Notes: generated from the letters alone by a model not told the origin. Shown: positions 23,105 through 44,862, numbered from the stretch's first letter. The stretch is DNA of 64,000 nt from Candidatus Omnitrophota bacterium (GCA_028715965.1 JAQUQS010000006.1:50163-114162), one strand, 5' to 3'. Program-made: numbers and translations.

Positions 23105-24394
23105 ATGATAAAAGTAAGGTTCGCTCCCAGTCCCACAGGTTTTCTGCATCTGGGTAGCGCGCGCACGGCTCTTTTTAACTGGCTTTACGCCCGCCGTACC
23201 GGGGGGACATATGTCCTGAGGATAGAGGATACGGATAAGGAGAGGTCAAAGGAAGAATTCCTCAACGAGATCCTGGAAGACCTGAAATGGCTGGGGCTGG
23301 ACTGGGACGGAGACCCGGTCTTTCAGAGTGACAGGTTCGACATATACAGGCAAAAAGCGGAAGGCCTTGTGGAGCAAGGTAAGGCATATATGGAAGGCAG
23401 CGCTATCATCTTTCGGGTGGAAAAAGGGCGGGATATAGAGATAGACGATATGATACATGGCAAGATAAAATTCAATACCGACGAGCTGAAGGACCAGGTA
23501 ATGATAAAATCCGACGGATCGCCGGCATATAATTTCTGCTGCGTGGTGGACGACTCCGAAATGGGGATCACCCATATCATACGTGGGGACGACCATATCT
23601 CCAATACGCCAAAACAGATGCTCTTTTATGAAGCGTTCGGCTGTGAGCCCCCCAGGTTCGGGCATATGCCGCTCATGATGGGCACGGATGGAGCCAAGCT
23701 TTCTAAAAGGCATGGCGGCGTATCTGTGGAGGAATACAGGACGGAAGGGTTCCTGCCGCAGGCGCTTATAAACTATCTCATGCTGCTTGGTTGGTCTCCC
23801 GGGGAAGAACGCGAAGTGCTTTCGCTCGGGGAAGCGATAGATATCTTTGATATTTCCGACATGACAGGGGTCCAGGCGAAGTTCGACGTCCAGAAACTGA
23901 GATGGTTGAACGGCGAATATATCATGAAACTTCCCCTTACGGAACTTAGTGGGCTCTTATCCGAGAGGGTAAAAAAGGCCGGGCTGGAGATATCCTCCAT
24001 CGGAGATGAGGGGTTCGCTAAACTGGTTGAGCTTTATCGCATGAGGATAAAGACATTGAGTGAGTTCGTGCCGCTGACAAAGTTCTTTTTCTCGGATGAG
24101 TTTGAGGTCGACGAAAAAGGATGGAAAAAATATCTGGAGGACGAAGGTAACCGTGATAATCTCAGGGAATTCTCCTCGAGGTTGCCCGGGCCAGACCAGT
24201 TCACGCATGATAATATAGAGGCGGTATGCCGGGCAATAGCTGAAGAAAGACAGCTCAAGGCGGCTCAGATAATACATCCTACCAGGATGGCTATAAGCGG
24301 TATTACCCAGGGAGCGGGGCTCTTCGAGATGATGGAGCTTCTTGGAAGGGAAAAGACCGTAGAACGCATGGAGAAAGCCGCCTCGGGACGATAA
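23105..24394 (+). CDS. gltX: glutamyl-tRNA synthetase (compact ~429-aa form)
   Basis: Class I HIGH (HLGSART) and KMSKS (KLSKRHG) motifs are present with the RFAPSPTGFLH N-terminus. GlnRS is encoded nearby, so this enzyme is presumably discriminating. Confidence 0.9.
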   Translation: MIKVRFAPSPTGFLHLGSARTALFNWLYARRTGGTYVLRIEDTDKERSKEEFLNEILEDLKWLGLDWDGDPVFQSDRFDIYRQKAEGLVEQGKAYMEGSAIIFRVEKGRDIEIDDMIHGKIKFNTDELKDQVMIKSDGSPAYNFCCVVDDSEMGITHIIRGDDHISNTPKQMLFYEAFGCEPPRFGHMPLMMGTDGAKLSKRHGGVSVEEYRTEGFLPQALINYLMLLGWSPGEEREVLSLGEAIDIFDISDMTGVQAKFDVQKLRWLNGEYIMKLPLTELSGLLSERVKKAGLEISSIGDEGFAKLVELYRMRIKTLSEFVPLTKFFFSDEFEVDEKGWKKYLEDEGNRDNLREFSSRLPGPDQFTHDNIEAVCRAIAEERQLKAAQIIHPTRMAISGITQGAGLFEMMELLGREKTVERMEKAASGR

Positions 24395-24466
24395 ATAGAA
24401 AAAAGGCTTTAAAAATAAGGGACTTGTAGTATAATAATTTTCCGGAATTCGCACGACAAAAACACC

Positions 24467-24584
24467 GCTGGGATGTAGCCGCATACCAGAGATCCCGCGG
24501 ATCACGGTATACGGCGCGTGTAATTGGTAACAGGACCCCTGTACCGTGATCACGAAGTGATCTCTGGTACAGGGCAGCTGACTC
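24467..24584 (+). pseudogene. degenerate 5' fragment of tRNA-Gln interrupted by two ~40-nt mutually complementary insertions
   Basis: Three segments are identical to the downstream tRNA-Gln: aacaccgctgggatgtag, tgtaattggtaaca and cagctgactc. They are separated by insertions at 24479-24518 and 24533-24574. The first insertion contains accagagatc and gatcacggta, and the second contains their reverse complements taccgtgatc and gatctctggt. There is no anticodon 3' half, T-arm or acceptor 3' strand. Confidence 0.6.
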
Positions 24585-24662
24585 CGTGTATAATAAATGC
24601 ATTTTTTGATAATGTCTCAAGTTGTAAAGCAAAATAAGTAAGTTATACATAAAAAACACCGC

Positions 24663-24737
24663 TGGGATGTAGTGTAATTGGTAACACAGCTGACTCTGGA
24701 TCAGCCGTTCCTGGTTCGAGTCCAGGCATCCCAGCCA
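24663..24737 (+). tRNA. tRNA-Gln (anticodon CTG), CCA encoded
   Basis: Manual fold gives acceptor TGGGATG/CATCCCA (U1:A72), discriminator G73, D-stem GTGT/ACAC, anticodon stem GCTGA/TCAGC with loop CTCTGGA (U33, anticodon CUG, A37), T-arm CCTGG-TTCGAGT-CCAGG and an encoded CCA. Confidence 0.85.
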
Positions 24738-24744
24738 TATATAA

Positions 24745-24770
24745 AAAAACCCTCTTTTGAGGGTTTTTTT
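24745..24770 (+). terminator. rho-independent terminator after tRNA-Gln
   Basis: aaaccctc tttt gagggttt is followed by a T7 run. Confidence 0.7.
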
Positions 24771-25084
24771 ATATGCCCGCGGAAGCGGGGGACGAGGGGT
24801 ATAAGATAAGAAATACCCCGAGTGACTGAGGACGCAATGTCCGAAGAAATGCCGCGAAGTCCCCTGAGCGGCCTGACCAGATAGCTTTTAACCCCTAACT
24901 GTTTACAGAATAAGTAGATGGGAGTACAATAACTGGAGTTGGGATAATAAGAAGTTATGATGTGTTAATGCCGTCCTACAAATGTATTGACAGCTTTACT
25001 GTTATGCTAACAGGAGAATGATATTATAGATTTTTCTGATTGGGGATAAAATGGTTATGAAGAGAAGAATGGTAGGAGGACGAA

Positions 25085-26065
25085 ATGGCTAAGCCTAGGG
25101 TTTTTATAAGTTCAACTTATTATGACATGAGGAATGTTAGGGCGGATTTGGAGAGATTTATTTTAGAACAAGGATATGAGCCCGTTTTGTTCGAGAGAGG
25201 GCATATTGCTTATGGTACGGAAGAGCGGGTGGAAGAAGATTGTTATAGGGAAATTAATACTTGCGACATATTAATAAATATCATTGGTGGTAAAATTGGG
25301 ACGCAGTCAAGAAGCACACAATATTCTATTTCACAAAATGAGCTAAAAGAAGCAATTAAGTTGGGAAAGCAGATATATATATTTGTAGAACGGCCAGTTC
25401 TAGCCGAATATAGTACCTTTATTGCAAATAAGGAAGTAGCGGGTTTCAAGGCAACTGCCGTGAATGATTTAAAGGTATATTCTTTTCTTGAAGAAATATT
25501 CGCACTTTCTGGAAAAAATCCAGTGCAGGGTTTTGAGGTTTCAGAAAACATTACCACTTTTCTCAGGGAACAGTGGGCAGGACTTTTTCAGGTATTACTG
25601 CAGGAACGTGCTAGGCAAAAGGAAGTAAATTTACTAGGCAGAATTGAAACGACTGCAGATACATTAGATAGGTTAGTAAAGTTTTTAACTGAAGAACGAA
25701 GTCAGGGCGACCAGGCCATTAAGGATATTCTTCTAAGCAATCACCCATTGTTCAAGTCTTTAAAGAAGCAACTTAACATTCCATATCGTATCTTTTTTGA
25801 AACACGCGATGAAATGGAAGCTTTGCTTGTAGCCAGAAAAACTAATCTAATTGAAGAGAAAGAGTGGGATGATGCAGAATATATAGAGTATTTGTGTGAA
25901 TGGTGGAAGAATACCACAAAAATTCTAAAGATAAAAGAAGATCTTTTTGACGAAGAAGGAAGGCTAAAAATATTTAAACCAGATGAGTGGGATGAAAGCG
26001 CCGTTATTTTGGAAGAAATAGAAAAAAATAATACTAGTGGAGAAGATTTAGAAGTTCCTTTTTAG
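25085..26065 (+). CDS. hypothetical protein with an N-terminal TIR-like (DUF4062-like) domain, an alpha-helical C-terminal domain, and a C-terminal SSB-tail-like EDLEVPF
   Basis: AGGAGG lies 7 nt upstream of the ATG. The N-terminus RVFISSTYYDMRNVRADLERFI resembles the VFISST..DM..R..L signature of DUF4062/TIR-like domains, and a conserved Glu sits in IYIFVERP. The C-terminal 170 aa are Glu/Lys-rich and helical, and the last residues are EVPF as in the host SSB. Confidence 0.6.
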   Translation: MAKPRVFISSTYYDMRNVRADLERFILEQGYEPVLFERGHIAYGTEERVEEDCYREINTCDILINIIGGKIGTQSRSTQYSISQNELKEAIKLGKQIYIFVERPVLAEYSTFIANKEVAGFKATAVNDLKVYSFLEEIFALSGKNPVQGFEVSENITTFLREQWAGLFQVLLQERARQKEVNLLGRIETTADTLDRLVKFLTEERSQGDQAIKDILLSNHPLFKSLKKQLNIPYRIFFETRDEMEALLVARKTNLIEEKEWDDAEYIEYLCEWWKNTTKILKIKEDLFDEEGRLKIFKPDEWDESAVILEEIEKNNTSGEDLEVPF

Positions 26066-26117
26066 CTATTACTTATGTTTATATGGTGAGCGCTTGGGTA
26101 AATTCCAGTTGGACAAG

Positions 26118-26158: not shown

Positions 26159-26452
26159 TGGTCAAAGGCCTGTGGCCTTTGTCTGTTCCCGGCTCGGGTT
26201 TCCGGCTGGGAACAAGTTCCCGCCGCTAAACCTCACCGGTTCCAGCTGTGATGCCTGGGATCCTGCGCATCTCGTCAGCTCGGTGCTGGTACGATCAGGG
26301 GACAACTTAAGCTATGGTTGGGGACAGTTTAAGCGGGAGTTTGTACCCGGTACAAGCTTTTGGCGTAGCCAGTACTTATTTACTGAAAAACTCCGCTTCG
26401 TATGATAAAATATCACATCAACAATTGTTATAACAAGTTAGAGGAGAGGGAC

Positions 26453-28141
26453 ATGGCGGGCGAGGAAAGACCTGTGACGAATTTCATAAGAGAGATAATA
26501 GATGAAGACCTCAAGAGGGGAAAGAACGACGGACGCGTGCATACGCGGTTCCCGCCGGAACCCAACGGGTACCTCCATATAGGACACGCCAAATCCATAT
26601 GCCTTAATTTCGGCCTGGCAAAAGATTACAACGGCCTGTGCAATCTGCGTTTTGATGATACAAATCCTGAAAAAGAAGAGGTAGAATACGTGGATTCTAT
26701 AATGGAAGACGTCAGGTGGCTGGGATTCGACTGGGCCGACAGGATGTATTACGCGTCGGATTATTTCGACAAGTTATATGAATTCGCGGTCACGCTCATA
26801 AAGACAGGGAAAGCTTACGTATGTGACCTTAACGCCGAACAAATGAGGGAATACAGGGGGACATTGACCGCGCCCGGGAAGGAAAGCCCGTACAGGAAAA
26901 GGAGCGTTGAGGAGAACCTGGAACTGTTTGCCGGGATGAGGAACGGCGAGTTCGATGAGGGGGAAAAGGTCTTGAGAGCGAAAATAGACATGGCCTCTCC
27001 CAATGTCACCATGCGCGACCCGATAATATACCGCATAAAAAAAGCTAACCACCACCGGACGGCTGATAAATGGTGTATCTATCCCATGTATGATTTCACG
27101 CATTGTCTTTCAGATTCACTTGAGGGGATAACCCATTCCATATGTACGATGGAGTTCGAGAATAACCGTCCGCTGTATGACTGGTTCCTCGACCAGCTGG
27201 GTGTGCATCACCCCCAGCAGATCGAGTTCGCGAGGCTCAACCTGGGGCATACTGTGCTTAGCAAGAGAAAACTTCTTGAGCTTGTAACCGAAAAATATGT
27301 GGACGGCTGGGATGATCCGCGTATGCCCACCATTTCCGGGTTGCGCAGGCGGGGATATACCCCGGAAGCGATCAGGGGTTTCTGTGAAAAGATAGGGGTC
27401 GCTAAATTCAACAGTATCGTTGATATGGTGGTCCTGGAGAACAGCATAAGAGAAGATCTGAACAAAACGGCCCCGCGCGTCATGGCCGTACTCGATCCGC
27501 TCAGGGTGGTCATAACGAATTATCCAGAGGGTAAGTCCGAAGAGCTCGACGCGGTCAATAACCCTGAAGACCCTTCGATGGGAAGGAGAAAGGTCCCGTT
27601 CTCGAAGGTCCTTTATATAGAGAAAGACGATTTTCGCGAAGACCCGCCGAAAAAATTCTTCAGACTCGCGCCCGGCAGAGAGGTCAGGTTAAGGTACGCG
27701 TATTTCGTAAAATGTGAAGATGTCATCAGGGATGATAGTACGGGAGAGATCATAGAGATACATTGTACTTACGACCCGGAGACACGTGGCGGTGACGCGC
27801 CGGACGGACGTAAGGTAAAAGGAACTATACACTGGGTGTCCGCGGAACATGCTTTTAAGGCAAAAGTAAGGTTGTATGACCATCTTTTCTCTAAAAGGAA
27901 CCCCAATGAAGAGGAAGAAGGAAAGGGATACAAAGATAGCCTTAATCCCGATTCGCTTATTGTCCGGGACGGATGTTTCCTGGAACCGGCGCTTTCGATC
28001 GCTGTCCCCGGATCGCGATATCAATTCGAACGAACGGGATATTTCTGTGTGGATACAAAGGATTCGTCTCCCGGCGCCCCAGTTTTCAACAGAACGGTAA
28101 CATTAAGGGACTCGTGGGCGAAGATAGAAAAGACCCAGTAG
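26453..28141 (+). CDS. glnS: glutaminyl-tRNA synthetase
   Basis: The ATG at 26453 follows GGAGAGG. Class I motifs HIGH (HIGHAKS) and a KMSKS-like motif are present with the [15 protein letters not shown]-terminus. Length and the anticodon-binding beta-barrels fit GlnRS rather than GluRS. Confidence 0.9.
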
Positions 28142-28373
28142 GGCTATTTATCCCGTAAAGATACTTCATATACCCGCAATACAGGTTTGCTCACCGGACC
28201 ATGCGTGTGTCCAAAAGGTTGTGGGCAAACAACTTACAAGCGCAATTTATCCTAGTTTACAACTTTTGTGAGGTAAGTTATAATTACTATTATTTAAATA
28301 AGCTGTATTATGTCTGAAAAGACACACAATGCAGCTGTTCGGATCTTAGTTGGAATAAAAATAACCTGGCAAA

Positions 28374-31300
28374 ATGCATATGAAAAGAACATATCCTTTC
28401 TATCTGGTGTTTATCCTTGCGCTACTCTTTACCAGTACCTTTTCGGAAGCCTACACAGAGGCCTACTCAGGACAGGAACTTGGACCTCGTGACGATATTA
28501 TGACAAAAAAACGCGTTAACGTGCTTTTAGAGGAAAGGGAGACCCTTCTCGAGGAACAGAAAGGTCTTTTGGAATACATGGGGATAATGGAAGAAGAGAT
28601 AGCAAGGCTCAAGAAAGAGGTTTCGGAATCCAGGAAGGGTCTTATGTCGGAAGTGGAAAAGACCAAAAAAGAACTTAGGGAACGGCTAGGGCAGCTGGAA
28701 GAAGAGAATGATACACTTAGGCGGCAACGGCAGATACTTGCCCGTAAATTAGTCGACCTTAAGGATGTAACGAAAACCTGGGACGGAGACACTGGTCCTT
28801 CAGGGGTGGATGATGCCGGGCTAAAAGGGCTAAAGAACGAGAACGATGAACTTTTGAAGGAGAATAGTGATCTTCGCGGGCAGATAGAGAAAGAAAGAAA
28901 AAAGAACGACAGGATCGAAGAAGATCTTAAGTCCGAAAAAGAAAAGGTCTCAAGGATCCAGAGATCACTCGAGAACGGGGTTAGCCAGGCTGCCGCGATC
29001 ATTGATGAAAAAGACGCGGAAATAAGGGAGCTTAGGAAAGAAAGCACGATCCTGTCGGTCAGGATAAGGGAAGCGGAGAAAGAGAACCTGGACCTCAGGA
29101 ACTCTTTAGGGGACTCCAAGACGGGGGCCGGTGTGGAAGATACTGGCAGTAGGGAGGATATCGCGCCCGGTCTTGAGGAGAAGATAAAAGAGCTTCAAAC
29201 GGTAATAAAAAGCCTGGAAAGGAAAAACCTTTCTTTACGGGAAGAGAATTCCAGGCTGGGAAAGACAGCTGTAAAGACCGGAACGCCCCAGGGAGGGCAG
29301 GACGAAGGGGTCGAAGGATACGTGTCCGATATAAGGGAAAAGAACGCCATCATATCGGAGTTACGTGGGGAAAAAGAAATGCTGGGAAAAAGGTTATCTA
29401 TCGCGATCAACGCCAAGAAAGCCTTAGAGGAAGAGCTTGCCAAGAGCCGGGTATCGACCGAAGCGGATGTTGACGCGGCGCGTCAGGAGCTCAAGAGCTC
29501 ATATGACGATATGGTTGAGGGGCTTAAGAAAGAGAACAGTGGCCTTCGGTCCGAGTTGTCGTCATCTGCCGGCAGGGAAAAGCGTCTTGTCGATGAGCTG
29601 GAAAAGACAAGGACGGGGATGAAGGAGCTTCTGGCGGACAACCAGAGAAAAGACCTGGCGCTGAAGAAGGTCATGGATCACCGCGAAGACGTCGAGAAAA
29701 AGCACAAGGACCTCGAGCGAAAGAATATCATGCTTGAGACCGAGCTGAAGAACCTCAACGCGCTCCAGGCCACAGAAAAAGAAAAGGCCCGGGAAGAGAT
29801 AAGCGCTGAGTACGAGGGCAGGATCAAAAGCCTGGCGCGAGAAAAGAACAAGCTGATGTCAGGGCTTGCCGAGCTGGAGAAAGAGCTCTTGGACATGAAG
29901 GATCGAGAGAAAGACGTGGAAAATGACAGGGTAAAAGAGCGGGATGAAAGAAAAGAGATGATCCGTGTGTTGACCAAGAAATACGCCAAGCGGGAAAGGG
30001 CTATCCTGGATGAGCGTGACGCCATGAAGGAAAAGATGGATGCCGCGAAGAAAGAGCTTGCCGATATACGGAAAGAAAAAGACGCGATACTGTTAGACAA
30101 AGAAGCGGCTGAAAAGGACAGGCAGGTCGCGGTGGAAGAAGCCCAGCTTATACGCCAGCAGGTTTCCCGGCTAAAGGATGATCTTTTAGAAAAAGAGGAG
30201 ATCGACAAGAAAAAGGCTAATGATTTCTATGTGCGAAAAGCGGCACTTCTTGAGAACGAGAACAAGGTCCTCAGGGATAACGTGAAAGAGATCAAAGAGA
30301 ACATGGCAAAAAAAGATGAAAGGACCAAAGAACTGCTTTCCGGCGCGGATGACATGAAGGCAGAGCTTGAAAAGGTTTCGCGGGAAAAAAGAGCCCTTTT
30401 GGAAGAGATAGATACGCTTAAGGCTTCAATGGAAAAGATAATGTCCGAAAAGGACGGTACCTATGCTACGGTCGAAAGCCTGCAAGGGAAGATACTGGCG
30501 CTTGAAAAAGAGCGTGACGATATGGGGAAAGAACTCGAGGGCTTGAGAGCAAGGAACAGCGTGGATATAGACGCAAAGCTCAGGGAAGCTGAGGGGGTGA
30601 TCTCCGAAAAGCAGGAAAGCATAAATACGCTTCTCGCCGACATCAAAGAGAAACAGGAAGAGGCGGAGAGGCTTTCGGGGGAAAAAGACGCGCTGGTAGA
30701 GAAAATGAAGGAAACATTGAAGGAGAAATACCTGTTGGAGAACAAGGCCAGGGACATCCTGAAGGAAAAATATGTCCTGGAAGAGGAGCTCGCGGCAGTA
30801 AGGGCCGGCGCGGAAAAGACCGCTACGAATGTGGAGGAATTTTCCGAGAAGGCCGGTGAGCTTGGGCAGCAGAACGCCGTTCTATCACGGGAAGTCAGGG
30901 AGCTTGAGGGTAAATTGGACGATATCTCCCGGGAGTTGGAGATGACTGAACAGGAGAACGAGGGGCTCAATGCCGACATTAAGGAATACCAGGCGCAGAT
31001 AAACGGGTTCAGCGCGGAGAGAGAGAGATTGAACGCCCAGATAAGGGCGATCCGGGGGCAAGCGGTCACCCCGGCAGGCGGAGCCAACGAGTTCGAGTCG
31101 TATATGTCTAAAATGGATACGGTCGTAGCGGAACGTGTAGAGGCGGAGAGGAAACTTGCTCAAGAAGCCTTTGATCGTAAGATAGAGGCGTACAAGAAAG
31201 AGGTTGGAGCATTGAGGGCGCAGCTTGACGCCAAAGGAAAAGATAGCGATACACGTGTGGATGTAAAAGGGGATTACGAGAGGCAGATGAAGGAAAAAGA

Positions 31301-31802
31301 CGGCAAGATCAAGGATTACGAAGATGCCTTGAGCAAGGAATTGGCCACCGTACGGGTCCTACAACGCAAGCTGAATGATACCAGGAAAAAACTCGCTGAT
31401 CTCGGATCGTCATTTGAGGCTACGATAACGGATAAGCAGAACATAATAGACAGGACGGGGAAAGACCTTGCCGCCGCGCGCAGCCAGGAAAAGGACATAA
31501 AAGAAAAATACCAGAAGGTCATGAGGGATCTTTCGAGCGCTTTACAGGGTAAGTCCAGTCTGGAGAAAAAACTCAAAGCCTACGGATCGGAAATAGACAG
31601 GATGAAAAAGAAAATAAGATCAAAGGGAACATCGGACAGCCGGGAGCCTTCCGGAAAACTTGAACGTGAAGTGCGGGCGTTGCGGGACGAGAACTCCGAA
31701 CTGAAACAACGGCTTGATATATTGCAGAAAGAGATAGAAGAGCTAAGGATGATGAACGCTAGGTCCCCCGTGCCGGTACATGTGGCCGGTGCCTCGAATT
31801 AA
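28374..31802 (+). CDS. giant secreted coiled-coil protein (1142 aa), function unknown
   Basis: The signal peptide is MKRTYPFYLVFILALLFTSTFSEA. More than 1000 aa follow of heptad-pattern Glu/Lys/Leu-rich sequence with no globular domain, and the C-terminus is Pro/Val-rich. Confidence 0.7.
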   Translation: MHMKRTYPFYLVFILALLFTSTFSEAYTEAYSGQELGPRDDIMTKKRVNVLLEERETLLEEQKGLLEYMGIMEEEIARLKKEVSESRKGLMSEVEKTKKELRERLGQLEEENDTLRRQRQILARKLVDLKDVTKTWDGDTGPSGVDDAGLKGLKNENDELLKENSDLRGQIEKERKKNDRIEEDLKSEKEKVSRIQRSLENGVSQAAAIIDEKDAEIRELRKESTILSVRIREAEKENLDLRNSLGDSKTGAGVEDTGSREDIAPGLEEKIKELQTVIKSLERKNLSLREENSRLGKTAVKTGTPQGGQDEGVEGYVSDIREKNAIISELRGEKEMLGKRLSIAINAKKALEEELAKSRVSTEADVDAARQELKSSYDDMVEGLKKENSGLRSELSSSAGREKRLVDELEKTRTGMKELLADNQRKDLALKKVMDHREDVEKKHKDLERKNIMLETELKNLNALQATEKEKAREEISAEYEGRIKSLAREKNKLMSGLAELEKELLDMKDREKDVENDRVKERDERKEMIRVLTKKYAKRERAILDERDAMKEKMDAAKKELADIRKEKDAILLDKEAAEKDRQVAVEEAQLIRQQVSRLKDDLLEKEEIDKKKANDFYVRKAALLENENKVLRDNVKEIKENMAKKDERTKELLSGADDMKAELEKVSREKRALLEEIDTLKASMEKIMSEKDGTYATVESLQGKILALEKERDDMGKELEGLRARNSVDIDAKLREAEGVISEKQESINTLLADIKEKQEEAERLSGEKDALVEKMKETLKEKYLLENKARDILKEKYVLEEELAAVRAGAEKTATNVEEFSEKAGELGQQNAVLSREVRELEGKLDDISRELEMTEQENEGLNADIKEYQAQINGFSAERERLNAQIRAIRGQAVTPAGGANEFESYMSKMDTVVAERVEAERKLAQEAFDRKIEAYKKEVGALRAQLDAKGKDSDTRVDVKGDYERQMKEKDGKIKDYEDALSKELATVRVLQRKLNDTRKKLADLGSSFEATITDKQNIIDRTGKDLAAARSQEKDIKEKYQKVMRDLSSALQGKSSLEKKLKAYGSEIDRMKKKIRSKGTSDSREPSGKLEREVRALRDENSELKQRLDILQKEIEELRMMNARSPVPVHVAGASN

Positions 31803-31830
31803 TTAGCTAAAAAACAGATGACGGGAAAAT

Positions 31831-34800
31831 ATGATGGTATGTAAGAGAATGGTACGTTCGAGTTTGCCGATCGCTTTCCTTGTGTTATCACAGGCGGTGC
31901 GGCCCATATATGCTGATGGAGAGGCAGCCACGCCTATCACGATCACGGCGAAAAGTAATAACGCCGTGATGTTCGGTAATAGCGGGAGGGATGAAAGCGG
32001 TATCGCCGATGGGCAGACAAGCGCTATCAGGCAGAAAGAGACGGAGATCGAGATATTAAAGGCGCAGCTTGAAGAAGCCAACGAAAGGCTGGCCACGAAA
32101 GAAAGATCTACCGGAGACAGCACGTCCAGATTGCGTAACCTGGTGGCGCGAATAGATGCCCTGGAAAAAGCTTCCAGGGAAAAGATCGCGTCATACGAGA
32201 AAGAGATAGCGGAGCTTAAAGCCGGGTCGGTCGAGAAGAACATATACCAGGGTACGGCCGGGGAGAAGGACCGGATAGAAATAAACAAACTCAAAACGGA
32301 GCTGGCCGGCGCGAAAGACGCTTTATCCCGTAAAATAGAAGAAGTCGCGGCCATGGACCGCGATCTCTCCCGCGTTAAGGAAGAAAAAAATAGCGCGCAA
32401 GCTGAAGCGGCATCTTTCAGGAACGCGCTATCGGAAAAGAGCCGTGAGTTAAGTTCCGTGCTGGAGGCGCATGCATCCCTGAAAAAAGAGCTGGATACCG
32501 CCATGGCGGGGATGAACGGGATCAAGGGGACAGAGGAAGATGGTGTTAAGGACGAAGAGGCTTTGTCCGTGCTGGAAAGCAAGGTACGGGACGGGGAAGA
32601 GACCATATCGTCCTTGAAAGAAGAGATAGTTTCCAGTAATATCAGGGCGGAAAAATATCTCGGGGATATCGAAGCGGCGAAAAAAGAGATAGAACGGTAT
32701 AAGGAGGACATCAGCAGGTTGTTGGCGGAGAACGCAAAATACCAGGAGAGGATAGACGCGTTGGACAAGGAAAGAACGGAAAAAGATATCGCGTCCGATG
32801 AGGCTATCTTGAAGGTCGAAGCGGCGGAACGGGAAGCGTCAGCGTACAAGGAAGATCTGTCCGCGGCCCAGGCGGAGGTGCGGAGCAATAAGGAGAGGAT
32901 AGACGCCCTCAAAAATGAAATAGCGGCCGGCGTGGCGAACATTAAGAAAAAAGAGGATATTATTAATGGGTTGACCGCTGAGATCGATTCCGAAAGAAAA
33001 AAGGCCCTTACTTACGCCGGACAAACGAAGGAGTATGAGGCAAAAATAAAGCGTATGGAGGAAGACCTGGCTCGCATGATCGACGCATCGGGAAAAAAGG
33101 ACGAGGAAATGACGTCACTCAGGGCTGAGATCGATGACTTGAGGAAGATCGAGGAACAAAAAGAGACCACGCGTGATAGTTTGAGCGGCGAGCTGGAGAT
33201 AAAGAAAAAGGAATTAGCTAATTTCGTAGAGGGGTTCGAGGCTTATAAAGAGAAGTATGCCGCGGAGGTCATCGATAGAGAAAAAGAGATAGAAAACCTC
33301 AGGAATGATCTTGCTGCCGGCAAGTCCAAGTTGGAAGACGCGAGGAAGGAGCTTGACAAGGAGAGAGGCGCCCTAAGGAACAAGGACGCGCGCATAAAGG
33401 AATTGGAGGGAAAGTTATCCTCCATGGAAGCCTTGGCCGAGGCAAAGTCCGCGGAAATGGAAAAGGGCCTGTCAGAACACCTGGAGACGATAAAGGTCAG
33501 GAACGAGGAAATAGGTAAGCTTAACGAAAAGATCGGGTCTTTTCAGGAGCAATTCAAGACCTTTTCCGACGCCAAGGATTCTGAAGTGGCTTTAAAAGAC
33601 AGCGAGATAGAGAGGCTAACGTCGGAAGTGAGGGGCCTGAAGGATGTCGCGATATCTAAGGATAAAGAGATCAACGCCCTCAAAAAGAACATGTCCGGGC
33701 TTGAGGGCAGGATAAAAGAAAATTCCATGAATTATGCTAAAGAACTGGACGCTTTAAAGGTGTCGATCGAAACAATAAGCAAAGAGAAAGAGGATATGGC
33801 CGCGGAGCTCAAGTCCAAGGCCGACGAGGTCAAGACTCTCACGGAAAGCCAGGAGGAAATGAACGTTTCTCTCGAGGCATACAAAAAAGACGTGACTTCC
33901 GGGGTGGCGGAAATAAGCGAGCTAAAGGCGCGTTTGGGGCGAACGGATGACGAGATGAAAACGCATCTTGCGGAATATGAGAAAGAGATCGCGGCGCTTG
34001 AGGCAGAGCTTGAGGAAAAGAACGCTAAAATGATCGAACTGGATTCGAGCCTGAGTTCGTATAAAGAGCAGTTCATAAGTTTTTCAGAAGAAAAAGACAA
34101 GGAGATAGCCGCCCAGAAAGACAAGATAACGTCACTTGAGAAGGAGAACGCGGTATTCTCAAAGGAGCGCATGGACCTCAAAGACAAAGAGTCGCGCCAG
34201 GCCGGCAGGATAAATGAGCTCGAGCGGGAAACGGGCCGGATAAAAGATAAGGCCGCGAAAATAATCTCAAAGTATAAGGAGGAAGTAGAAACGCTTGAGG
34301 CCAGATCGTTGTCGGTCCAGTCCCAACTTACGCAGGCACAACAGGAAGCGGAAGCGCTAAGGGATGAAAAGGCGAGAAAAGAACTTGAAAAAGACGAAAG
34401 GACCGCGCAATTCCAGTATATGTCGGCCAGTCTCAAGCGTGCTATGCGCAAGACCATAGACGCGGGTGAAGTGGCAGTTTCGGCCTCGGATAAGGGGGTT
34501 AAAGTATCGGTCCTTAGTGATGTCCTGTTCGGGCCGGGAAGTGCCGATATCAGTTCCGGGGGGAAAAGTGTCTTATCGGATATTGGTAACGCCCTCCAGA
34601 AAAGTATGTCCGGAAATAAGATCGTTATCGAGGGGCATACGGATAACGTGCCTATACGCAGGTCCGGATGGAAGTCGAATTGGGACCTGTCCAGCCAGAG
34701 AGCGATATCCGTATTGCATTATTTTACTGATGACCTTGGTATGACCCCGGATGATATGCGGGTGACCGGATATGGACAATATCGCCCGATAGCGGATAAT

Positions 34801-34869
34801 TCGACCGAGGAAGGGCGCAACCGGAACCGAAGGGTCGAGATACTGGTGCTCCCGGTGGCGGAAAACTAA
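31831..34869 (+). CDS. giant secreted coiled-coil protein (1012 aa) with C-terminal OmpA/MotB-type peptidoglycan-binding domain
   Basis: A signal peptide ending at the IYA-DGE cleavage region is followed by about 850 aa of coiled-coil. The C-terminal domain (VLFGPGSADISSGGKSVLSDIGNAL..IVIEGHTDNVPI..SNWDLSSQRAISVLHYF..TGYGQYRPIADNSTEEGRNRNRRVEILV) matches OmpA_C. Confidence 0.8.
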   Translation: MMVCKRMVRSSLPIAFLVLSQAVRPIYADGEAATPITITAKSNNAVMFGNSGRDESGIADGQTSAIRQKETEIEILKAQLEEANERLATKERSTGDSTSRLRNLVARIDALEKASREKIASYEKEIAELKAGSVEKNIYQGTAGEKDRIEINKLKTELAGAKDALSRKIEEVAAMDRDLSRVKEEKNSAQAEAASFRNALSEKSRELSSVLEAHASLKKELDTAMAGMNGIKGTEEDGVKDEEALSVLESKVRDGEETISSLKEEIVSSNIRAEKYLGDIEAAKKEIERYKEDISRLLAENAKYQERIDALDKERTEKDIASDEAILKVEAAEREASAYKEDLSAAQAEVRSNKERIDALKNEIAAGVANIKKKEDIINGLTAEIDSERKKALTYAGQTKEYEAKIKRMEEDLARMIDASGKKDEEMTSLRAEIDDLRKIEEQKETTRDSLSGELEIKKKELANFVEGFEAYKEKYAAEVIDREKEIENLRNDLAAGKSKLEDARKELDKERGALRNKDARIKELEGKLSSMEALAEAKSAEMEKGLSEHLETIKVRNEEIGKLNEKIGSFQEQFKTFSDAKDSEVALKDSEIERLTSEVRGLKDVAISKDKEINALKKNMSGLEGRIKENSMNYAKELDALKVSIETISKEKEDMAAELKSKADEVKTLTESQEEMNVSLEAYKKDVTSGVAEISELKARLGRTDDEMKTHLAEYEKEIAALEAELEEKNAKMIELDSSLSSYKEQFISFSEEKDKEIAAQKDKITSLEKENAVFSKERMDLKDKESRQAGRINELERETGRIKDKAAKIISKYKEEVETLEARSLSVQSQLTQAQQEAEALRDEKARKELEKDERTAQFQYMSASLKRAMRKTIDAGEVAVSASDKGVKVSVLSDVLFGPGSADISSGGKSVLSDIGNALQKSMSGNKIVIEGHTDNVPIRRSGWKSNWDLSSQRAISVLHYFTDDLGMTPDDMRVTGYGQYRPIADNSTEEGRNRNRRVEILVLPVAEN

Positions 34870-34962
34870 ATAAAAGAGCAAAATTTGTTTTTTATTCAAC
34901 TTGTGCTATACTATTACATAATATTAAAAGCACATGTGGAAAAAACGCTTTTTCACGGAAAC

Positions 34963-35472
34963 ATGATAAAAACCTTAACAATACCCATCATAACATTTTT
35001 TCTTTTAGCTATTTGCGCGCAAAATGTGCGCGCTGAGGATTTTAGCCATATAAAGGACCTTTTTGCTCTCCGTGAGAACCTGTCGGAACAGGGGTCTTCC
35101 CTGCCGAATGCCATAAAAAAGACCTCAGGGAAAGACCTTATGACGCTGGAGCGTATATTCGAGCTTAATACCTCGGCCTTGACGACCATAGAGGCTTATT
35201 TCCGGTTGTTCAAAATGGCGCTTGCCGCCGGGACCAACATGAGGGCGGAAGACATAAAGATCATAAACGAATGGCTAGAGTTCATCAATAACCAATGTAA
35301 ATACGATATCGAATATCTTGACGCAGCTATGAAAGAAACCTCGGATGGAGCTGTGCATGAGCAGATAGCCAGTGCTAAGGATAATATTGAAAGGCTTTCT
35401 CTGATCGCTGAGAAGGGTGTTAAGGAGAACTCCGCTATATTGACCAAGAACATGTCGCCTGCGGTAGAATGA
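34963..35472 (+). CDS. small secreted alpha-helical protein, unknown function
   Basis: The signal peptide is MIKTLTIPIITFFLLAICAQNVRA. The gene follows the OmpA-anchored coiled-coil gene, and the ORF-track start at 34885 is an upstream extension. Confidence 0.5.
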   Translation: MIKTLTIPIITFFLLAICAQNVRAEDFSHIKDLFALRENLSEQGSSLPNAIKKTSGKDLMTLERIFELNTSALTTIEAYFRLFKMALAAGTNMRAEDIKIINEWLEFINNQCKYDIEYLDAAMKETSDGAVHEQIASAKDNIERLSLIAEKGVKENSAILTKNMSPAVE

Positions 35473-35478
35473 CAGGCT

Positions 35479-35889
35479 CTAATCCTCTTTTTTGACCATA
35501 TTCTCGTCCGTAGTCTCCATTGAATTAAAACGCGATTTAGGTTGCAGCATATCCATTATCATGGGCTGGGTTATCGTGTGCTGGAGCCCGGATGTCGAGC
35601 CATCAAGGGATTCGTTGACCAACGCGCCTAATTTTTCCTCCAGCCGCGCTGAATACTTGGCCGCGGAACTGTTCTGTGTTTTTTCCATGGGGATCAGGTT
35701 AGATACTATTTCGCAGAAGAACAAGAGATCTTTGGTGTCTTGTTCCATCATTTTAAGTGAGAGGTTCTTTTTCTCTATTCTTGAGGAGAAGGAGGACATA
35801 TCCTCTCCCGTCCCTTCTCCGAATATGTTCCCAGCCGGGAAGAGAAGGAGGAATGATACGGCTACTACCCACAACAACTGACGTTTCAT
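35479..35889 (-). CDS. small secreted protein, unknown function
   Basis: The signal peptide is MKRQLLWVVAVSFLLLFPAGNIFG. The gene is convergent with the preceding gene. Confidence 0.45.
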   Translation of the reverse strand: MKRQLLWVVAVSFLLLFPAGNIFGEGTGEDMSSFSSRIEKKNLSLKMMEQDTKDLLFFCEIVSNLIPMEKTQNSSAAKYSARLEEKLGALVNESLDGSTSGLQHTITQPMIMDMLQPKSRFNSMETTDENMVKKED

Positions 35890-37878: not shown

Positions 37879-38976
37879 TTGTTTATGAATAATACTCCTG
37901 AAAAAAGATTTATCAAAGTTCTTATTGTCGAGGATGAGCCTACCAGCAGGAAACTGGTGGATAATATGCTCAAGGCGGCCAGTGAGAACACTTACGCGAC
38001 AAAAGATGTCGGCACGTTAAAAGAGGCCCGGGAAATGATGTCCTCGGATAAGGTGCCATATGATGTGGTCCTTCTTGACCTTAACCTTCCGGATAGCACC
38101 GGGTTGGACACTCTTACCGCCATGGACAAGGAATTTTCATGGGCGCCGATAGTCGTGATAACGGGGGCCTATGAGGAGGAATTGGGACTGGAAGCTGTAT
38201 CTAAAGGGGCGCAGGATTATTTGATAAAAGGGAAATACGACATCGGCATGCTTACCAAGACCATTCTCTATGCCATCGACCGCAAGAAACTGCAAACGCG
38301 CCTATTGCAATCGGAAAAGATGGCGGGCATAGGTACCATGGCCGCCAGTATAGCCCATGAACTCCGGACACCGTTGGGGGTTATAGAGCTGGCGGTAGAT
38401 AACCTGACACATTACCTGAAACCGGAAGATGAAAAAGTAAAAGTCCTGATCAGCAATATACTGAAGAAAATACGCGAGACAGAAAAGACCATCAACGATA
38501 TATTGAGCTATTCCAGGCTGAGCAAGCCGGTTTTTACCAAAGCCGATATAAATGACGTGGTAAAATGCGCCTTGAACGATGTGCGGGGTCTGTTCCTGGA
38601 TTATGATATAAAAATAACGGAAGAATACGAGAATGTGCCCAACATCAAGATCGATGAGGTACAGATGGCCGGCGTATTCCAGAACATAATCAAGAACGCT
38701 TATGAATCCATGGACAGGATAGGACACCTGGAGATCAAGACATCGTTCAGTGAGGGCGACGGAAGCATATATGTACGCATATCGGATACGGGGTGTGGGG
38801 TCGCCAAGCAGAACATCGAAAAAATGGATAAACCGTTCTTTACGACCAAGGCTAAGGGGATAGGCTTAGGGCTCGCTCTCTCGTCGCGGATAATAAAGGA
38901 GAACCACAAGGGGGACTTTGAGATAGTCAGCGACGTGGACAAGGGTACAACATTCATCATAAAGCTGCCGCTTTGA
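37879..38976 (+). CDS. hybrid response-regulator receiver / histidine kinase (REC-HisKA-HATPase_c), cytoplasmic
   Basis: An N-terminal REC domain (KVLIVEDE..D.VLLDLNLPD..G) precedes an H-box (IAHELRTPLGVI), N-box (FQNIIKNAYES), G1 (DTGCGV) and G2 (GIGLGLALS). There is no TM segment. Confidence 0.85.
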   Translation: MFMNNTPEKRFIKVLIVEDEPTSRKLVDNMLKAASENTYATKDVGTLKEAREMMSSDKVPYDVVLLDLNLPDSTGLDTLTAMDKEFSWAPIVVITGAYEEELGLEAVSKGAQDYLIKGKYDIGMLTKTILYAIDRKKLQTRLLQSEKMAGIGTMAASIAHELRTPLGVIELAVDNLTHYLKPEDEKVKVLISNILKKIRETEKTINDILSYSRLSKPVFTKADINDVVKCALNDVRGLFLDYDIKITEEYENVPNIKIDEVQMAGVFQNIIKNAYESMDRIGHLEIKTSFSEGDGSIYVRISDTGCGVAKQNIEKMDKPFFTTKAKGIGLGLALSSRIIKENHKGDFEIVSDVDKGTTFIIKLPL

Positions 38977-39397: not shown

Positions 39398-40324
39398 TCA
39401 GTCTAGGTTTTCCAGGGCTTTCTTATACATGCTGTACGCTTTTTTGTATTCCCCGCGATCGTAATATTTATCTCCCTGTTCTATCAGCCTGGCGGATTCA
39501 CGTACTTTCGTGTCGCCAGTAAGGCTTTTAGGGGCAGGGTTGATCGTGGCGGGCGGGGTCGCGGAAGCCGCAGCTGTCGTGGTCCCAGGTGTTTCACTTT
39601 TCTGCCCGGATTCGAGTTTCTTGACCCGGGCCTCCAGTTGTTCCAGCAAGTTGATCTCGTTCTGCTGGCTGGCCGAAACAGGTCTTATCACAGGTTCCAC
39701 GCTCTTGTCGGTAATGTCTGGTGCCCCAGTGTTCCCATCCCGGGGGGCGAGATCGGCGGAACAAAGCGCCAGATATTTCCGCGCGTCCATGTTTTCCGGG
39801 TCATTTTCCAGCGCTTCCGAAAATTTAGCGCTGGCATTATCAGTATCACCATTATCAAGGAATATCTTGCCTTTTTTGACCAGTATTTTCGCCGCGAATA
39901 TCTTTTGCGCCAATTCTTTTACCGCGTCATCACTTGCCTGGACATTTTCCGGGGCGGACGCAGGGAAGGTTACGTCGGTCCCGGAGGACGATATCCCCGA
40001 TGGGCTTTCCACGTCAGGCGTAACGGAAGTGTCCGCCGGGCCTATCATGTCCAGAAAGCGTCGGGCTTCGCTGTTCTCGGGATCTTTTGCCAGGGCTTCC
40101 TCGAATTTCATTCTGGCCGTGGCTACGTCGCCGTTATCATAACACCGGCTTCCTTCTTTCACGAGAAGAGAGGAGTGGTATATGTTCTCGGCGAGGAGAG
40201 TTACCTCATCCTGGCGGCCGGCTGTCGCGGTATTGTCCGAAGAATGGGCGACCTTAGGGCCCGTTGCCAGGAACGCGCATATGATCAGAAAAATACAGGT
40301 GTATCTACCGGTAAAGTTACTCAT
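39398..40324 (-). CDS. secreted TPR-repeat protein
   Basis: The probable start is the ATG at 40324 (signal peptide MSNFTGRYTCIFLIICAFLATG), since the upstream in-frame extension would overlap the preceding gene by about 150 nt. The body has repeated TPR-like units (YDNGDVATARMKFEEALAKDPEN, LDNGDTDNASAKFSEALENDPEN, YDRGEYKKAYSMYKKALE). Confidence 0.7.
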   Translation of the reverse strand: MSNFTGRYTCIFLIICAFLATGPKVAHSSDNTATAGRQDEVTLLAENIYHSSLLVKEGSRCYDNGDVATARMKFEEALAKDPENSEARRFLDMIGPADTSVTPDVESPSGISSSGTDVTFPASAPENVQASDDAVKELAQKIFAAKILVKKGKIFLDNGDTDNASAKFSEALENDPENMDARKYLALCSADLAPRDGNTGAPDITDKSVEPVIRPVSASQQNEINLLEQLEARVKKLESGQKSETPGTTTAAASATPPATINPAPKSLTGDTKVRESARLIEQGDKYYDRGEYKKAYSMYKKALENLD

Positions 40325-41737: not shown

Positions 41738-41758
41738 TTTTCCAACTCCGATCGTGTT

Positions 41759-43769: not shown

Positions 43770-43789
43770 TAGCAGGCCAAGCCTCCGTT

Positions 43790-44617: not shown

Positions 44618-44862
44618 TATGCGCCCTCGGTCCGGTACTACATGTAGTGTTTTTCTGAGGAGATAATATCTATATCTATGATATAACTTTTGCCATGTAT
44701 ATAATACATTATAAAGTTTAAGATTGTCAATAGCAATAAAAGGTATAAATGACAATATCGGATCGACATCAAGGTGGAAAACTCGGGTTTTACGGCCGAG
44801 AGGCCGAACGGAGACATGGATAGGTCTTTAAATAATTAGTATTGTAGGCCTATCAGACAAAA

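What the first reader, a model, noticed from the sequence alone, without database searches (positions are those of the whole stretch)
28374..35889. Pair of giant secreted coiled-coil proteins, one with an OmpA-type peptidoglycan anchor, followed by two small secreted proteins
Two consecutive genes encode signal-peptide proteins of 1142 and 1012 aa. Both are almost entirely heptad-periodic Glu/Lys/Leu-rich coiled coil. An 850-aa coiled coil would be roughly 120 nm long if it were a continuous helix. The second ends in a clear OmpA_C/MotB peptidoglycan-binding domain, with its TDNVPI..N..LS..RA..V motif. Two further small signal-peptide proteins follow. This looks like a dedicated envelope module, perhaps a periplasm-spanning tether or spacer system or a surface-fibre system anchored to the sacculus. 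It is far longer than Lpp- or Ompalpha-type tethers.
Basis: partly seen in the sequence, partly recalled or inferred. Interest (0 to 1): 0.6.

Follow-up and report, generated by a model that had tools for sequence, protein, structure and literature searches.

The report
Giant wall-anchored coiled-coil protein pair
Two adjacent genes of an uncultured ultra-small bacterium (Omnitrophota) encode exported rod-shaped proteins over 100 nm long, one of which grips the cell wall with a flagellar-motor-type anchor domain; the gene pair is real and unusual in size, but the two small genes next to it are an unrelated conserved pair, not part of a four-gene module.

Summary
P1 (28374-31802, 1142 aa) and P2 (31831-34869, 1012 aa) are real, non-repetitive ORFs in a Candidatus Omnitrophota MAG. 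Both have N-terminal signal peptides and about 800-1100 residues of heptad-periodic helix. P2 ends in a bona fide OmpA-family domain (Pfam E=4e-20), specifically the MotB/PomB subtype (PDB MotB E=1e-26).

P2 is not an orphan. It belongs to an unnamed family with a signal peptide, a coiled coil of very variable length (578-1913 aa overall) and the same MotB-like domain. The named members are Omnitrophota. Its nearest shorter relatives are widespread 200-430 aa lipoproteins with a short coiled coil and the same domain.

P1 has no detectable homologue anywhere. None of six giant P2 homologues has a P1-like neighbour.

The two "small secreted proteins" are convergent: S4 is on the minus strand. 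They form their own conserved Omnitrophota gene pair, found elsewhere without any coiled-coil or OmpA gene. The four-gene module is therefore not supported.

A rod of about 120 nm cannot stand across the periplasm of cells that are typically 200-300 nm in this phylum. I favour a wall-anchored rod lying in or along the envelope (low confidence).

Verdict: a giant variant of a known but uncharacterised kind, of moderate interest.

The parts
28256..28284 (+). Promoter-like site TTTACA-17 nt-TATAAT upstream of P1. It is the best sigma-70 match in the region (11 of 12).
   Evidence: sequence read
28374..31802 (+). P1: 1142-aa ORF. Signal-peptide-like aa 1-26 (28374-28451). Heptad-periodic coiled coil about aa 45-1131 (28506-31766). 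No recognised domain, and no anchor at either end. The public annotation starts it at 28500.
31831..34869 (+). P2: 1012-aa ORF with a signal peptide (aa 1 to about 21-28), a short non-helical segment, a coiled coil and a MotB-type peptidoglycan-binding domain.
32014..34458 (+). P2 coiled-coil rod, aa 62-876. Predicted helix with six short breaks. Longest unbroken heptad run is 239 residues.
34300..34851 (+). P2 C-terminal MotB/PomB-type OmpA-like peptidoglycan-binding region, aa 824-1007. The Pfam OmpA core is aa 899-1000. The conserved family block is KG[IV].V.VL.D.LF.SGSA...EGHTDN.PI..S.W.SNW.LS..RA.SVL...GYG...P.A.N.T..GR..NRRVEI.
34963..35472 (+). S3: 169-aa secreted four-helix-bundle protein from a well conserved, Omnitrophota-enriched family. 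It is not part of the P1/P2 unit.
35479..35889 (-). S4: 136-aa protein with a signal peptide, on the opposite strand and convergent with S3. It is the conserved partner of S3 in other Omnitrophota. It is not part of the P1/P2 unit.

Best explanation
P1 and P2 form a two-gene operon in a diderm, LPS-bearing Candidatus Omnitrophota bacterium. Both products are probably exported by the Sec pathway and form long two-stranded coiled-coil rods, about 160 nm and about 120 nm if straight.

P2 is a giant member of a family built as signal peptide + variable-length coiled coil + MotB/PomB-type OmpA-like domain. Its C-terminal domain binds peptidoglycan non-covalently. By analogy with MotB-C and PomB-C it would act as a dimer, which fits a parallel dimeric coiled coil leading into it. 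P2 is therefore a sacculus-anchored rod.

The rod is about half a cell diameter long, and its length is not conserved in the family. It therefore most likely lies within or along the envelope as a wall-attached brace, mesh or scaffold, rather than standing across the periplasm as a spacer. P1 has no anchor and no relatives. It is most simply a lineage-specific partner that associates with P2 or with the same layer.

Shown: the ORFs, heptad periodicity, OmpA/MotB-type domain, family membership, lack of conserved synteny, and the independence of S3/S4.
Inferred: export of P1, oligomeric state, in-plane geometry, and any P1-P2 interaction.
For: - Domain: Pfam OmpA E=4e-20. NCBIfam MotD 1e-42 and MotB 9e-36 over aa 824-1008. 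PDB MotB 6ysf 1e-26 and PomB 3wpx 7e-19.
- Coiled coil: periodicity and register analysis. The a positions are I/L/V (plus 9% Asn in P1), the d positions are Leu-rich, and the e/g positions are E/K/R. AF2 gives helix 62-876.
- Family: an exhaustive HMMER search of 1.84e9 representatives found relatives with a signal peptide, a coiled coil and the same C-terminal block. These are P0005 (1303 aa), P0017 (1913), P0037 (1025), P0047 (1018), P0025 (828), P0028 (809), P0052 (651), P0012 (638) and P0008 (578). The named ones are Omnitrophota 'OmpA family protein'.
- Weak residual similarity in the coiled-coil part itself: P0005 E=4e-8 in a small local database.
- Shorter relatives are mostly lipobox lipoproteins with a short coiled coil and the same domain.
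- Envelope context: BamA, LpxC, LpxI, LpxB, a TolC-type protein and a secretin in the same window show a classical outer membrane.
- Operon: one strong promoter-like site, a 28-nt gap and no terminator.
- Cell size 0.2-0.3 um (PMC10066038) and intact peptidoglycan synthesis in the phylum (bioRxiv 10.64898/2026.06.07.730766).
Against: - No experiment or structure exists for any family member.
- The six helix breaks in P2 and 12-16 register shifts could let the rods fold back into much shorter bundles.
- The oligomeric state and orientation (parallel or antiparallel) are untested.
- P1's signal peptide depends on choosing the 28374 start over the annotated 28500 start, and neither has a ribosome-binding site.
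- Nothing identifies what the N-terminal end of P2 touches. P2 lacks the TPR-like N-terminal hairpin that many homologues carry.
- P1 being an orphan means the pairing could be a recent accident.
- The cell size of this particular organism is not known.
Confidence: 0.5

Rival explanations
1. The rods stand perpendicular to the membranes and set or bridge an unusually wide periplasm, as a super-long Lpp/Ompalpha-type tether or spacer. P2 would hold the wall and its other end would reach a membrane.
For: - The architecture of coiled coil plus wall-binding end is formally like Lpp, Ompalpha or OmpM.
- Short relatives of P2 are lipoproteins, so their lipid end sits in a membrane and their PGB end on the wall.
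- The same window encodes a TolC-type protein with an N-terminal helical extension of about 1650 aa. This could hint at unusual envelope dimensions.
Against: - 120-160 nm is about half the 200-300 nm cell diameter reported for the phylum (PMC10066038).
- P2 has no lipobox, transmembrane segment, SLH domain or beta-barrel at the other end.
- Coiled-coil length varies from about 400 to about 1750 residues among homologues, which is unlike a ruler.
- P1 has no anchor at all.
Confidence: 0.12
2. One or both proteins, especially the anchorless P1, leave the periplasm and form surface fibres or adhesins. These would be used by a host-dependent nanobacterium to contact prey or host cells, with P2 as the wall-anchored base.
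For: - Omnitrophota are proposed to be host-dependent or predatory and to use large surface proteins (PMC10066038; 10.64898/2026.06.07.730766).
- P1 is a fast-evolving orphan, as surface proteins often are.
- A secretin gene cluster lies 4-9 kb downstream on the other strand.
Against: - There is no autotransporter, type I, type IX or other outer-membrane export signal or domain in P1 or P2.
- A peptidoglycan-binding domain places the C-terminus of P2 under the outer membrane.
- There is no adhesin-type globular head.
- The secretin cluster is a separate, oppositely oriented unit.
Confidence: 0.15
3. P1 really starts at 28500, as in the public annotation, and is a cytoplasmic coiled-coil (cytoskeletal or SMC-like) protein. 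Its adjacency to the periplasmic P2 would then have no functional meaning.
For: - The public gene call starts at 28500.
- There is no Shine-Dalgarno match before 28374.
- P1 is not found next to any P2 homologue.
- Its weak hits are to SMC and Rad50 coiled-coil arms.
Against: - The 42 upstream in-frame codons encode a textbook signal peptide (K/R n-region, 17-residue hydrophobic core, S-E-A cleavage motif), which is unlikely by chance.
- 28500 also lacks a Shine-Dalgarno match.
- The SMC and Rad50 hits are far below cutoffs and cover only the coiled coil. There is no ATPase head or hinge.
- The 28-nt spacing and shared promoter suggest co-expression with P2.
Confidence: 0.18
4. P2 is a stator-like (MotB, PomB, TolR or ExbD-type) energised component that plugs an ion channel and transmits force to the wall.
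For: The C-terminal 185 residues are most similar to MotB, MotD and PomB, including the region N-terminal to the OmpA core.
Against: - There is no N-terminal transmembrane helix with the conserved Asp and no plug motif. The only hydrophobic segment is a short signal peptide (motif test).
- There is no MotA, PomA, TolQ or ExbB gene among the ORFs scanned within about 8 kb on either side.
- All MotB-family NCBIfam scores are below half of their cutoffs.
- 800 residues of coiled coil replace the short MotB linker.
Confidence: 0.03

Closest known systems
MotB / PomB / MotD C-terminal peptidoglycan-binding domain (OmpA_C-like, PF00691)
   Same: The best sequence matches of P2 aa 824-1007 are MotD 1e-42, MotB 9e-36, PDB 6ysf 1e-26 and PomB 3wpx 7e-19. 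The conserved GHTDN.PI...SNW.LS..RA...NRRVEI motif is present. A helical segment leads into the domain.
   Different: P2 has no channel-forming transmembrane helix with Asp, no plug and no MotA partner. About 815 residues of coiled coil take the place of a linker of about 50 residues. It has a cleavable signal peptide instead of a membrane anchor.
Widespread short lipoproteins of 200-430 aa (lipobox + short coiled coil + MotB-type OmpA domain), and the NCBIfam PRK09039 'peptidoglycan-binding protein' models
   Same: The domain order and C-terminal domain subtype are the same. These are the closest non-giant relatives in both exhaustive searches. The PRK09039.1-1 model aligns with P2 aa 403-1004 (E=3e-30).
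   Different: P2 has a plain signal peptide rather than a lipobox Cys, and a coiled coil 3 to 20 times longer. Its score is far below the PRK09039 cutoff (106 against 388 bits). These short proteins are themselves uncharacterised.
Braun's lipoprotein Lpp
   Same: It is a periplasmic coiled coil that links the wall to another envelope layer. Its length is known to set periplasmic width (PMC5736177, PMC8824477).
   Different: Lpp is 58 aa (about 8 nm), trimeric, lipidated at Cys1 and covalently attached to peptidoglycan through its C-terminal Lys. P2 has none of these features and binds through an OmpA-like domain.
OmpM / SlpA / Thermotoga Ompalpha
   Same: These have a long periplasmic coiled-coil stalk joined to a wall-binding domain, and act as outer-membrane tethers in some diderms (PMC10628300).
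   Different: They bind the wall through an N-terminal SLH domain and end in a beta-barrel or transmembrane anchor. P2 has a C-terminal OmpA-like domain, no SLH domain and no membrane anchor, and its stalk is several times longer.
CpoB (YbgF) of the Tol-Pal system
   Same: It is an exported protein that combines a coiled coil with TPR-type helical hairpins and acts at the wall. Many P2 homologues carry one TPR-like hairpin right after the signal peptide.
   Different: CpoB is about 260 aa, its TPR domain is C-terminal, and it has no peptidoglycan-binding domain. P2 itself lacks the hairpin. This is a resemblance only, with no detected homology.

Membership tests
OmpA family (Pfam PF00691, OmpA_C-like peptidoglycan-binding domain) | Match to the family HMM above the curated gathering score | tested here: met
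   P2 aa 899-1000 cover model positions 1-98 of 98. Score 72.4 bits against a cutoff of 27.2, E=4.1e-20. P1, S3 and S4 have no match.
OmpA family (Pfam PF00691, OmpA_C-like peptidoglycan-binding domain) | Conserved peptidoglycan-contact residues (Asp of the TD motif, Arg of the RA motif, NRRVE strand) | tested here: met
   GHTDNVPI, SNWDLSSQRA and NRRVEI are present. They are invariant in the 13-sequence family alignment: D128, R147, N189-R190-R191-V192. Actual binding is not testable here.
MotB/PomB flagellar stator B subunit | N-terminal transmembrane helix carrying the conserved ion-binding Asp, followed by a plug helix | tested here: not met
   The only hydrophobic segment of P2 is SSLPIAFLVLSQAV, which has no Asp. 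No Y[AS]D..T motif is present, although genuine MotBs among the hits show it.
MotB/PomB flagellar stator B subunit | Adjacent MotA/PomA-type channel partner | tested here: not met
   No MotA_ExbB-type domain was found among the ORFs scanned within about 8 kb on either side.
MotB/PomB flagellar stator B subunit | Whole-protein score above the NCBIfam equivalog cutoff | tested here: not met
   MotD 146 against 283 bits and MotB 124 against 301 bits. Only the C-terminal part aligns.
Braun lipoprotein (Lpp)-type tether | Lipobox Cys at the mature N-terminus and a C-terminal Lys for covalent attachment | tested here: not met
   P1 and P2 have no L-x-[GAS]-C lipobox. Their C-termini are ...AGASN and ...PVAEN.
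OmpM / SlpA / Ompalpha tethers | SLH wall-binding domain plus a beta-barrel or transmembrane outer-membrane anchor | tested here: not met
   There is no SLH or barrel match in Pfam for P1 or P2 at E<=0.01.
NCBIfam PRK09039 'peptidoglycan-binding protein' (coiled coil + OmpA) | Score above the curated cutoff | tested here: not met
   NF006542 scores 105.7 bits against a cutoff of 388, although the alignment spans P2 aa 403-1004.
Unnamed giant coiled-coil/MotB-like family (named members Omnitrophota; P0005, P0017, P0025, P0028, P0037, P0047 and others) | Signal peptide, then several hundred residues of heptad repeat, then the shared C-terminal block | tested here: met
   P2 is 33-44% identical to 12 members over the last 200 residues or so, with 26 invariant columns. 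All have signal-peptide-like N-termini and 53-91% heptad-positive windows. Weak similarity extends into the coiled coil.
Unnamed giant coiled-coil/MotB-like family (named members Omnitrophota; P0005, P0017, P0025, P0028, P0037, P0047 and others) | N-terminal TPR-like hairpin (Y..EYAK.LY..G....A..EF.KAL.IDP.N..AK.YL) | tested here: not met
   The hairpin is present in 8 homologues. It is absent from P2, and also from P0025, P0028 and P0037. The HMM of the motif gives no significant hit in P1 or P2. It defines a subgroup rather than the whole family.
SMC / Rad50 (considered for P1) | ABC-type ATPase head halves and a hinge or zinc hook flanking the coiled coil | tested here: not met
   Only the coiled-coil arms align: TIGR02168 scores 67 bits against a cutoff of 567. 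No SMC_N or hinge domain appears in Pfam.

The most novel reading that the evidence does not exclude
Giant wall-anchored coiled-coil proteins of the P2 family, here together with a lineage-specific partner P1, assemble into a periplasmic, sacculus-attached filament lattice. This would be a true extracytoplasmic 'cytoskeleton' that braces or shapes the envelope of 200-nm Omnitrophota cells. The rapidly changing rod length would tune the mesh size, and the TPR-like hairpins seen in homologues and in the giant TolC of the same window would act as common docking modules.
Probability: 0.15. Interest if true: 0.75.

Novelty: new variant of a known kind. Interest (0 to 1): 0.45.

Why it matters
The way diderm bacteria couple wall and membranes is known from a handful of short tethers: Lpp, Pal, OmpA and OmpM. 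If the rods are straight, a family that places 60-250 nm of coiled coil on a MotB-type wall anchor, in cells only about 200 nm wide, would be a different structural solution. It could be a wall-attached lattice or long-range brace, and it occurs in a phylum with no cultured model other than Velamenicoccus. It also gives a concrete, searchable sequence signature (signal peptide + heptads + the KGIVVTVL...GHTDNVPI...SNWELS...NRRVEI block) for interpreting periplasmic densities in future tomograms of nanobacteria. The practical correction also matters: the four genes are not a module, and S3/S4 are a separate, well conserved, completely uncharacterised secreted pair.

Tried and rejected
1. Word-index homology searches with P2 and P1 returned only the proteins themselves, plus one unrelated multi-OmpA beta-barrel protein (P0002). 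Coiled-coil words saturate the candidate list, so I switched to the exhaustive HMMER search.
2. The genome-contig scan with P2 hit only the OmpA domain. L002 is a 228-aa OmpA protein. L004's '890-aa ORF' is an artefact of a high-GC open frame, and the real gene is a lipoprotein of about 250 aa.
3. The metagenome scan with P1 found nothing.
4. The top HMMER hits P0004, P0006, P0069, P0073 and P0109 are long for other reasons (tandem OmpA domains, or DUF11-like repeats plus OmpA). They were excluded from the family.
5. The AF2 single-sequence model of P2 did not fold the OmpA domain (pLDDT below 50). Domain identity therefore rests on HMM and PDB sequence matches, not on a fold search.
6. Homology between P1 and P2 was rejected. 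BLASTP gives E=0.006, coiled-coil composition only. P1 has no hit to any family member with composition correction.
7. Mis-assembly or repeat artefact was rejected: there are no DNA repeats and an independent assembly agrees.
8. A homologue of S3 downstream of the P0005 gene was rejected (E=8.5).
9. The fold search of the confident S3 model (pLDDT 91.5) against the PDB gave only generic four-helix bundles, none at E<=0.001. S3's function stays unknown.
10. A stator function for P2 was rejected (see the membership test).

Full report
**Origin and setting.** P2's exact sequence occurs on contig JAQTUB010000005.1 (160,958 bp) of assembly GCA_028710465.1. P1 and S3 carry NCBI names from a Candidatus Omnitrophica/Omnitrophota MAG. 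The window also encodes BamA (five POTRA domains plus Omp85), LpxC, LpxI, LpxB, a TolC-type protein with HlyD and AcrB, and a secretin. The organism therefore has a classical LPS outer membrane and a periplasm. Omnitrophota are reported to be mostly about 0.2-0.3 um cells (PMC10066038) with a complete peptidoglycan pathway (bioRxiv 10.64898/2026.06.07.730766).

**Checking the observation.** The two large ORFs are as described: 28374-31802 (1142 aa) and 31831-34869 (1012 aa), same strand, 28 nt apart.
- Both proteins are rich in E, K, L, A and R, and proline occurs only near the ends.
- A 3.5-residue hydrophobic periodicity test against shuffled sequence is positive in 71% and 68% of 56-residue windows. 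About 5% would be expected by chance.
- A simple register-tracking model finds uninterrupted heptad runs of up to 207 and 239 residues. The a positions are I/L/V (plus 9% Asn in P1), the d positions are Leu-rich and the e/g positions are charged. This is the pattern of canonical two-stranded coiled coils. The hydrophobic enrichment at a and d is partly imposed by the model, but the Asn enrichment is not.
- The AF2 single-sequence model of P2 is helical from residue 62 to 876 with six short breaks. That gives about 121 nm if straight.
- P2's C-terminus matches Pfam OmpA over the full model (E=4e-20).
- There are no tandem or long direct DNA repeats. An independent Logan assembly encodes the identical protein. 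The genes are therefore not assembly artefacts.

**Two corrections to the observation.**
- The fourth gene is on the minus strand and convergent with the third.
- The public annotation starts P1 at 28500, without the signal peptide. Most genes in the window have a GGAG-like Shine-Dalgarno site, but neither candidate start of P1 does. I prefer 28374 or 28380 because the upstream 26 codons form a textbook signal peptide. This is an inference.

**What P2 is.**
- *Anchor domain.* It is specifically of the MotB/PomB subtype. The best NCBIfam models are MotD (1e-42) and MotB (9e-36), and they align from aa 824, well upstream of the OmpA core. The best solved structures are MotB and PomB periplasmic domains (6ysf 1e-26, 3wpx 7e-19).
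- *Not a stator.* P2 has no transmembrane helix with the conserved Asp, no plug and no MotA-type neighbour. All whole-protein scores are below half the curated cutoffs.
- *A real family.* The word-indexed search found no relatives. The exhaustive HMMER search of 1.84 billion representatives found 64 hits below 1e-30. After removing proteins that are long for other reasons, a coherent family remains: signal peptide, then a heptad-rich region of very variable length, then a shared C-terminal block (KGIVVTVL.D.LF.SGSA ... EGHTDNVPI.YS.WKSNWELSSARALSVL ... GYGEYRP.ADNST..GR..NRRVEI). Overall sizes are 578, 638, 651, 809, 828, 1018, 1025, 1303 and 1913 aa.
- *Taxonomy.* The clusters that carry a name are all 'OmpA family protein [Candidatus Omnitrophota]'.
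- *Shared ancestry of the rod.* P2's coiled-coil part retains weak similarity to those of P0005, P0012 and P0025. This suggests common descent with fast divergence.
- *Shorter relatives.* The rest of the top 150, and the best 80 JGI metagenome loci for the domain, are overwhelmingly 200-430 aa proteins. Most are lipoproteins with an L-x-G-C lipobox, a short coiled coil and the same domain. A minority are genuine MotBs. None reaches a curated NCBIfam cutoff, so this is a known architecture without a characterised function.
- *N-terminal hairpin.* Eight of the long homologues carry a TPR-like hairpin directly after the signal peptide. P2 does not.

**What P1 is.** P1 has no Pfam or NCBIfam domain beyond sub-threshold coiled-coil look-alikes such as SMC and Rad50 arms. 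It has no homologue in 5.8 billion proteins other than itself and none in JGI metagenome contigs. It shows no similarity to P2 or the P2 family once composition is corrected. It has no lipobox, no transmembrane segment after the signal peptide and no wall-binding domain. It is an orphan, anchorless coiled coil.

**Is there a four-gene module?** No.
- Six giant P2 homologues were located on contigs (L005, L006, L007, L009, L010, L011). Their neighbourhoods are all different: wall-remodelling enzymes, DnaG/RpoD, the Bat operon with HtpG, Wzz/Wzy, an M48 peptidase, IlvD. None contains a second long coiled-coil gene.
- S3, by contrast, is strongly conserved: 67 relatives at 42-68% identity, with named ones almost all Omnitrophota.
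- In three other genomes S3 is always followed by a convergent small gene that is homologous to S4 (31-33% identity, shared motifs). There the pair sits next to SerRS and RtcB genes (archease in two of the three loci), with no OmpA or coiled-coil gene nearby.
- S3/S4 is therefore an independent conserved pair, and its position beside P2 here is incidental.
- With a 43-sequence alignment, S3 folds confidently (pLDDT 91.5) as a four-helix bundle after its signal peptide. The PDB fold search returns only generic bundles.

**How it most likely works.**
- *Shown.* P2 is exported, because its wall-binding domain only makes sense outside the cytoplasm. It carries a MotB-type peptidoglycan-binding domain at the end of about 815 helical, heptad-periodic residues. 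P1 and P2 share one strong promoter-like site (28256-28284, 11 of 12) and have no terminator between them.
- *From established knowledge.* MotB-C and PomB-C domains bind peptidoglycan non-covalently and crystallise as dimers (my own knowledge of the 2zvy, 3cyp and 3wpw work).
- *Inferred.* A parallel dimeric coiled coil leading into a dimeric anchor is the simplest reading. A straight rod of 120 nm (P2) or 160 nm (P1) is about half the diameter of a typical Omnitrophota cell, and the rod length varies more than threefold across the family. A perpendicular spacer of defined length is therefore unlikely. I favour a wall-anchored rod that lies in or along the envelope as a brace, mesh or scaffold, with P1 as a lineage-specific associate.

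I put about 0.85 on the descriptive part and about 0.3 on the in-plane scaffold geometry. The overall confidence of 0.5 reflects the mixture.

**Alternatives.**
- A perpendicular tether (0.12).
- Surface fibres (0.15).
- A cytoplasmic P1 whose adjacency is meaningless (0.18).
- A stator-like role (0.03).
- Folding back at the helix breaks into shorter bundles cannot be excluded and would weaken all length arguments.

**Comparison with known systems.** P2 passes the membership test for the OmpA family. It fails the tests for MotB stators, Lpp, OmpM/Ompalpha and the PRK09039 equivalogs (see the table). It works most like a non-covalent wall tether, but at a length scale with no characterised precedent that I found. 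Literature searches found no description of coiled-coil OmpA proteins in Omnitrophota.

**Verdict.** This is a real, unusual pair. P2 is a giant variant of a known but uncharacterised architecture, P1 is an orphan, and the proposed four-gene module dissolves. Interest is moderate (0.45). It would be higher if tomography or biochemistry showed a periplasmic lattice.

Noticed in passing
window 49525-56193 (+), with 56228-57523 and 57654-60818: This is a 2222-aa TolC-type outer-membrane factor. It has a signal peptide (likely start at the Met of MKDRIRRGMRRLL) and OEP domains only in the last 470 residues or so. An extension of about 1650 aa precedes them, built of roughly 15-18 repeats of a TPR-like hairpin followed by a very highly charged E/R/K/A helix that looks like a single alpha-helix. 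Some repeats are nearly identical. HlyD and AcrB genes follow, so it heads an RND efflux operon. A TolC with such an extension is very unusual.
   Followed up: partly
window 34963-35472 (+) and 35479-35889 (-); L093 6996-7927, L094 10001-10978, L095 10001-10939: S3 and S4 form a conserved convergent pair of small secreted proteins that appears specific to Omnitrophota. Their stop codons lie 3-66 nt apart. S3 is a confident four-helix bundle with invariant motifs TLERIFELNTSALTTIEAYFR and NEWL.F..NQC.YD.EYL. Its function is unknown. In other genomes the pair sits beside SerRS and RtcB genes (archease in two of the three loci).
   Followed up: yes
P0005, P0017, P0047, P0012, P0052, P0008, P0011, P0015 N-termini; window 49525-56193 aa about 480-870: Many giant P2 homologues carry a TPR-like hairpin right after the signal peptide. 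A small HMM of it matches the repeated hairpins of the giant TolC extension in this window (E=2e-8 against three sequences, with weak per-repeat scores). This may be a shared envelope docking module, or it may just be generic TPR similarity.
   Followed up: partly
window 28374 versus 28500: The public annotation of P1 (hypothetical protein PHH49_04605, 1100 aa) starts 42 codons downstream of the start that yields a signal peptide. The protein is therefore likely mis-annotated as cytoplasmic.
   Followed up: partly
window 24400-26100 (ORF 25085-26065 +): A DUF4062-domain protein lies in a low-GC stretch (0.41 against about 0.49) inserted between the GluRS-type (23105-24394) and GlnRS-type (26402-28141) synthetase genes. 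This may be a small acquired island.
   Followed up: no
window 39398-44755 (-): A minus-strand cluster contains a secretin (Secretin_N + Secretin), an AAA_22 ATPase (ExeA/GspA-like) and several TPR proteins, downstream of a response-regulator/histidine-kinase hybrid gene (37879-38976). It is a separate envelope machine and is not linked to P1/P2 by orientation.
   Followed up: no
L005 7389-9804 and 10001-13912: In one genome (GCA_974496175.1) the 1303-aa P2 homologue lies directly downstream of wall-remodelling genes: Amidase_2 + LysM, PG_binding_1, a Peptidase_S11 D-Ala-D-Ala carboxypeptidase and YggT. This fits a wall-related role, but the context is not conserved in the other five loci.
   Followed up: partly
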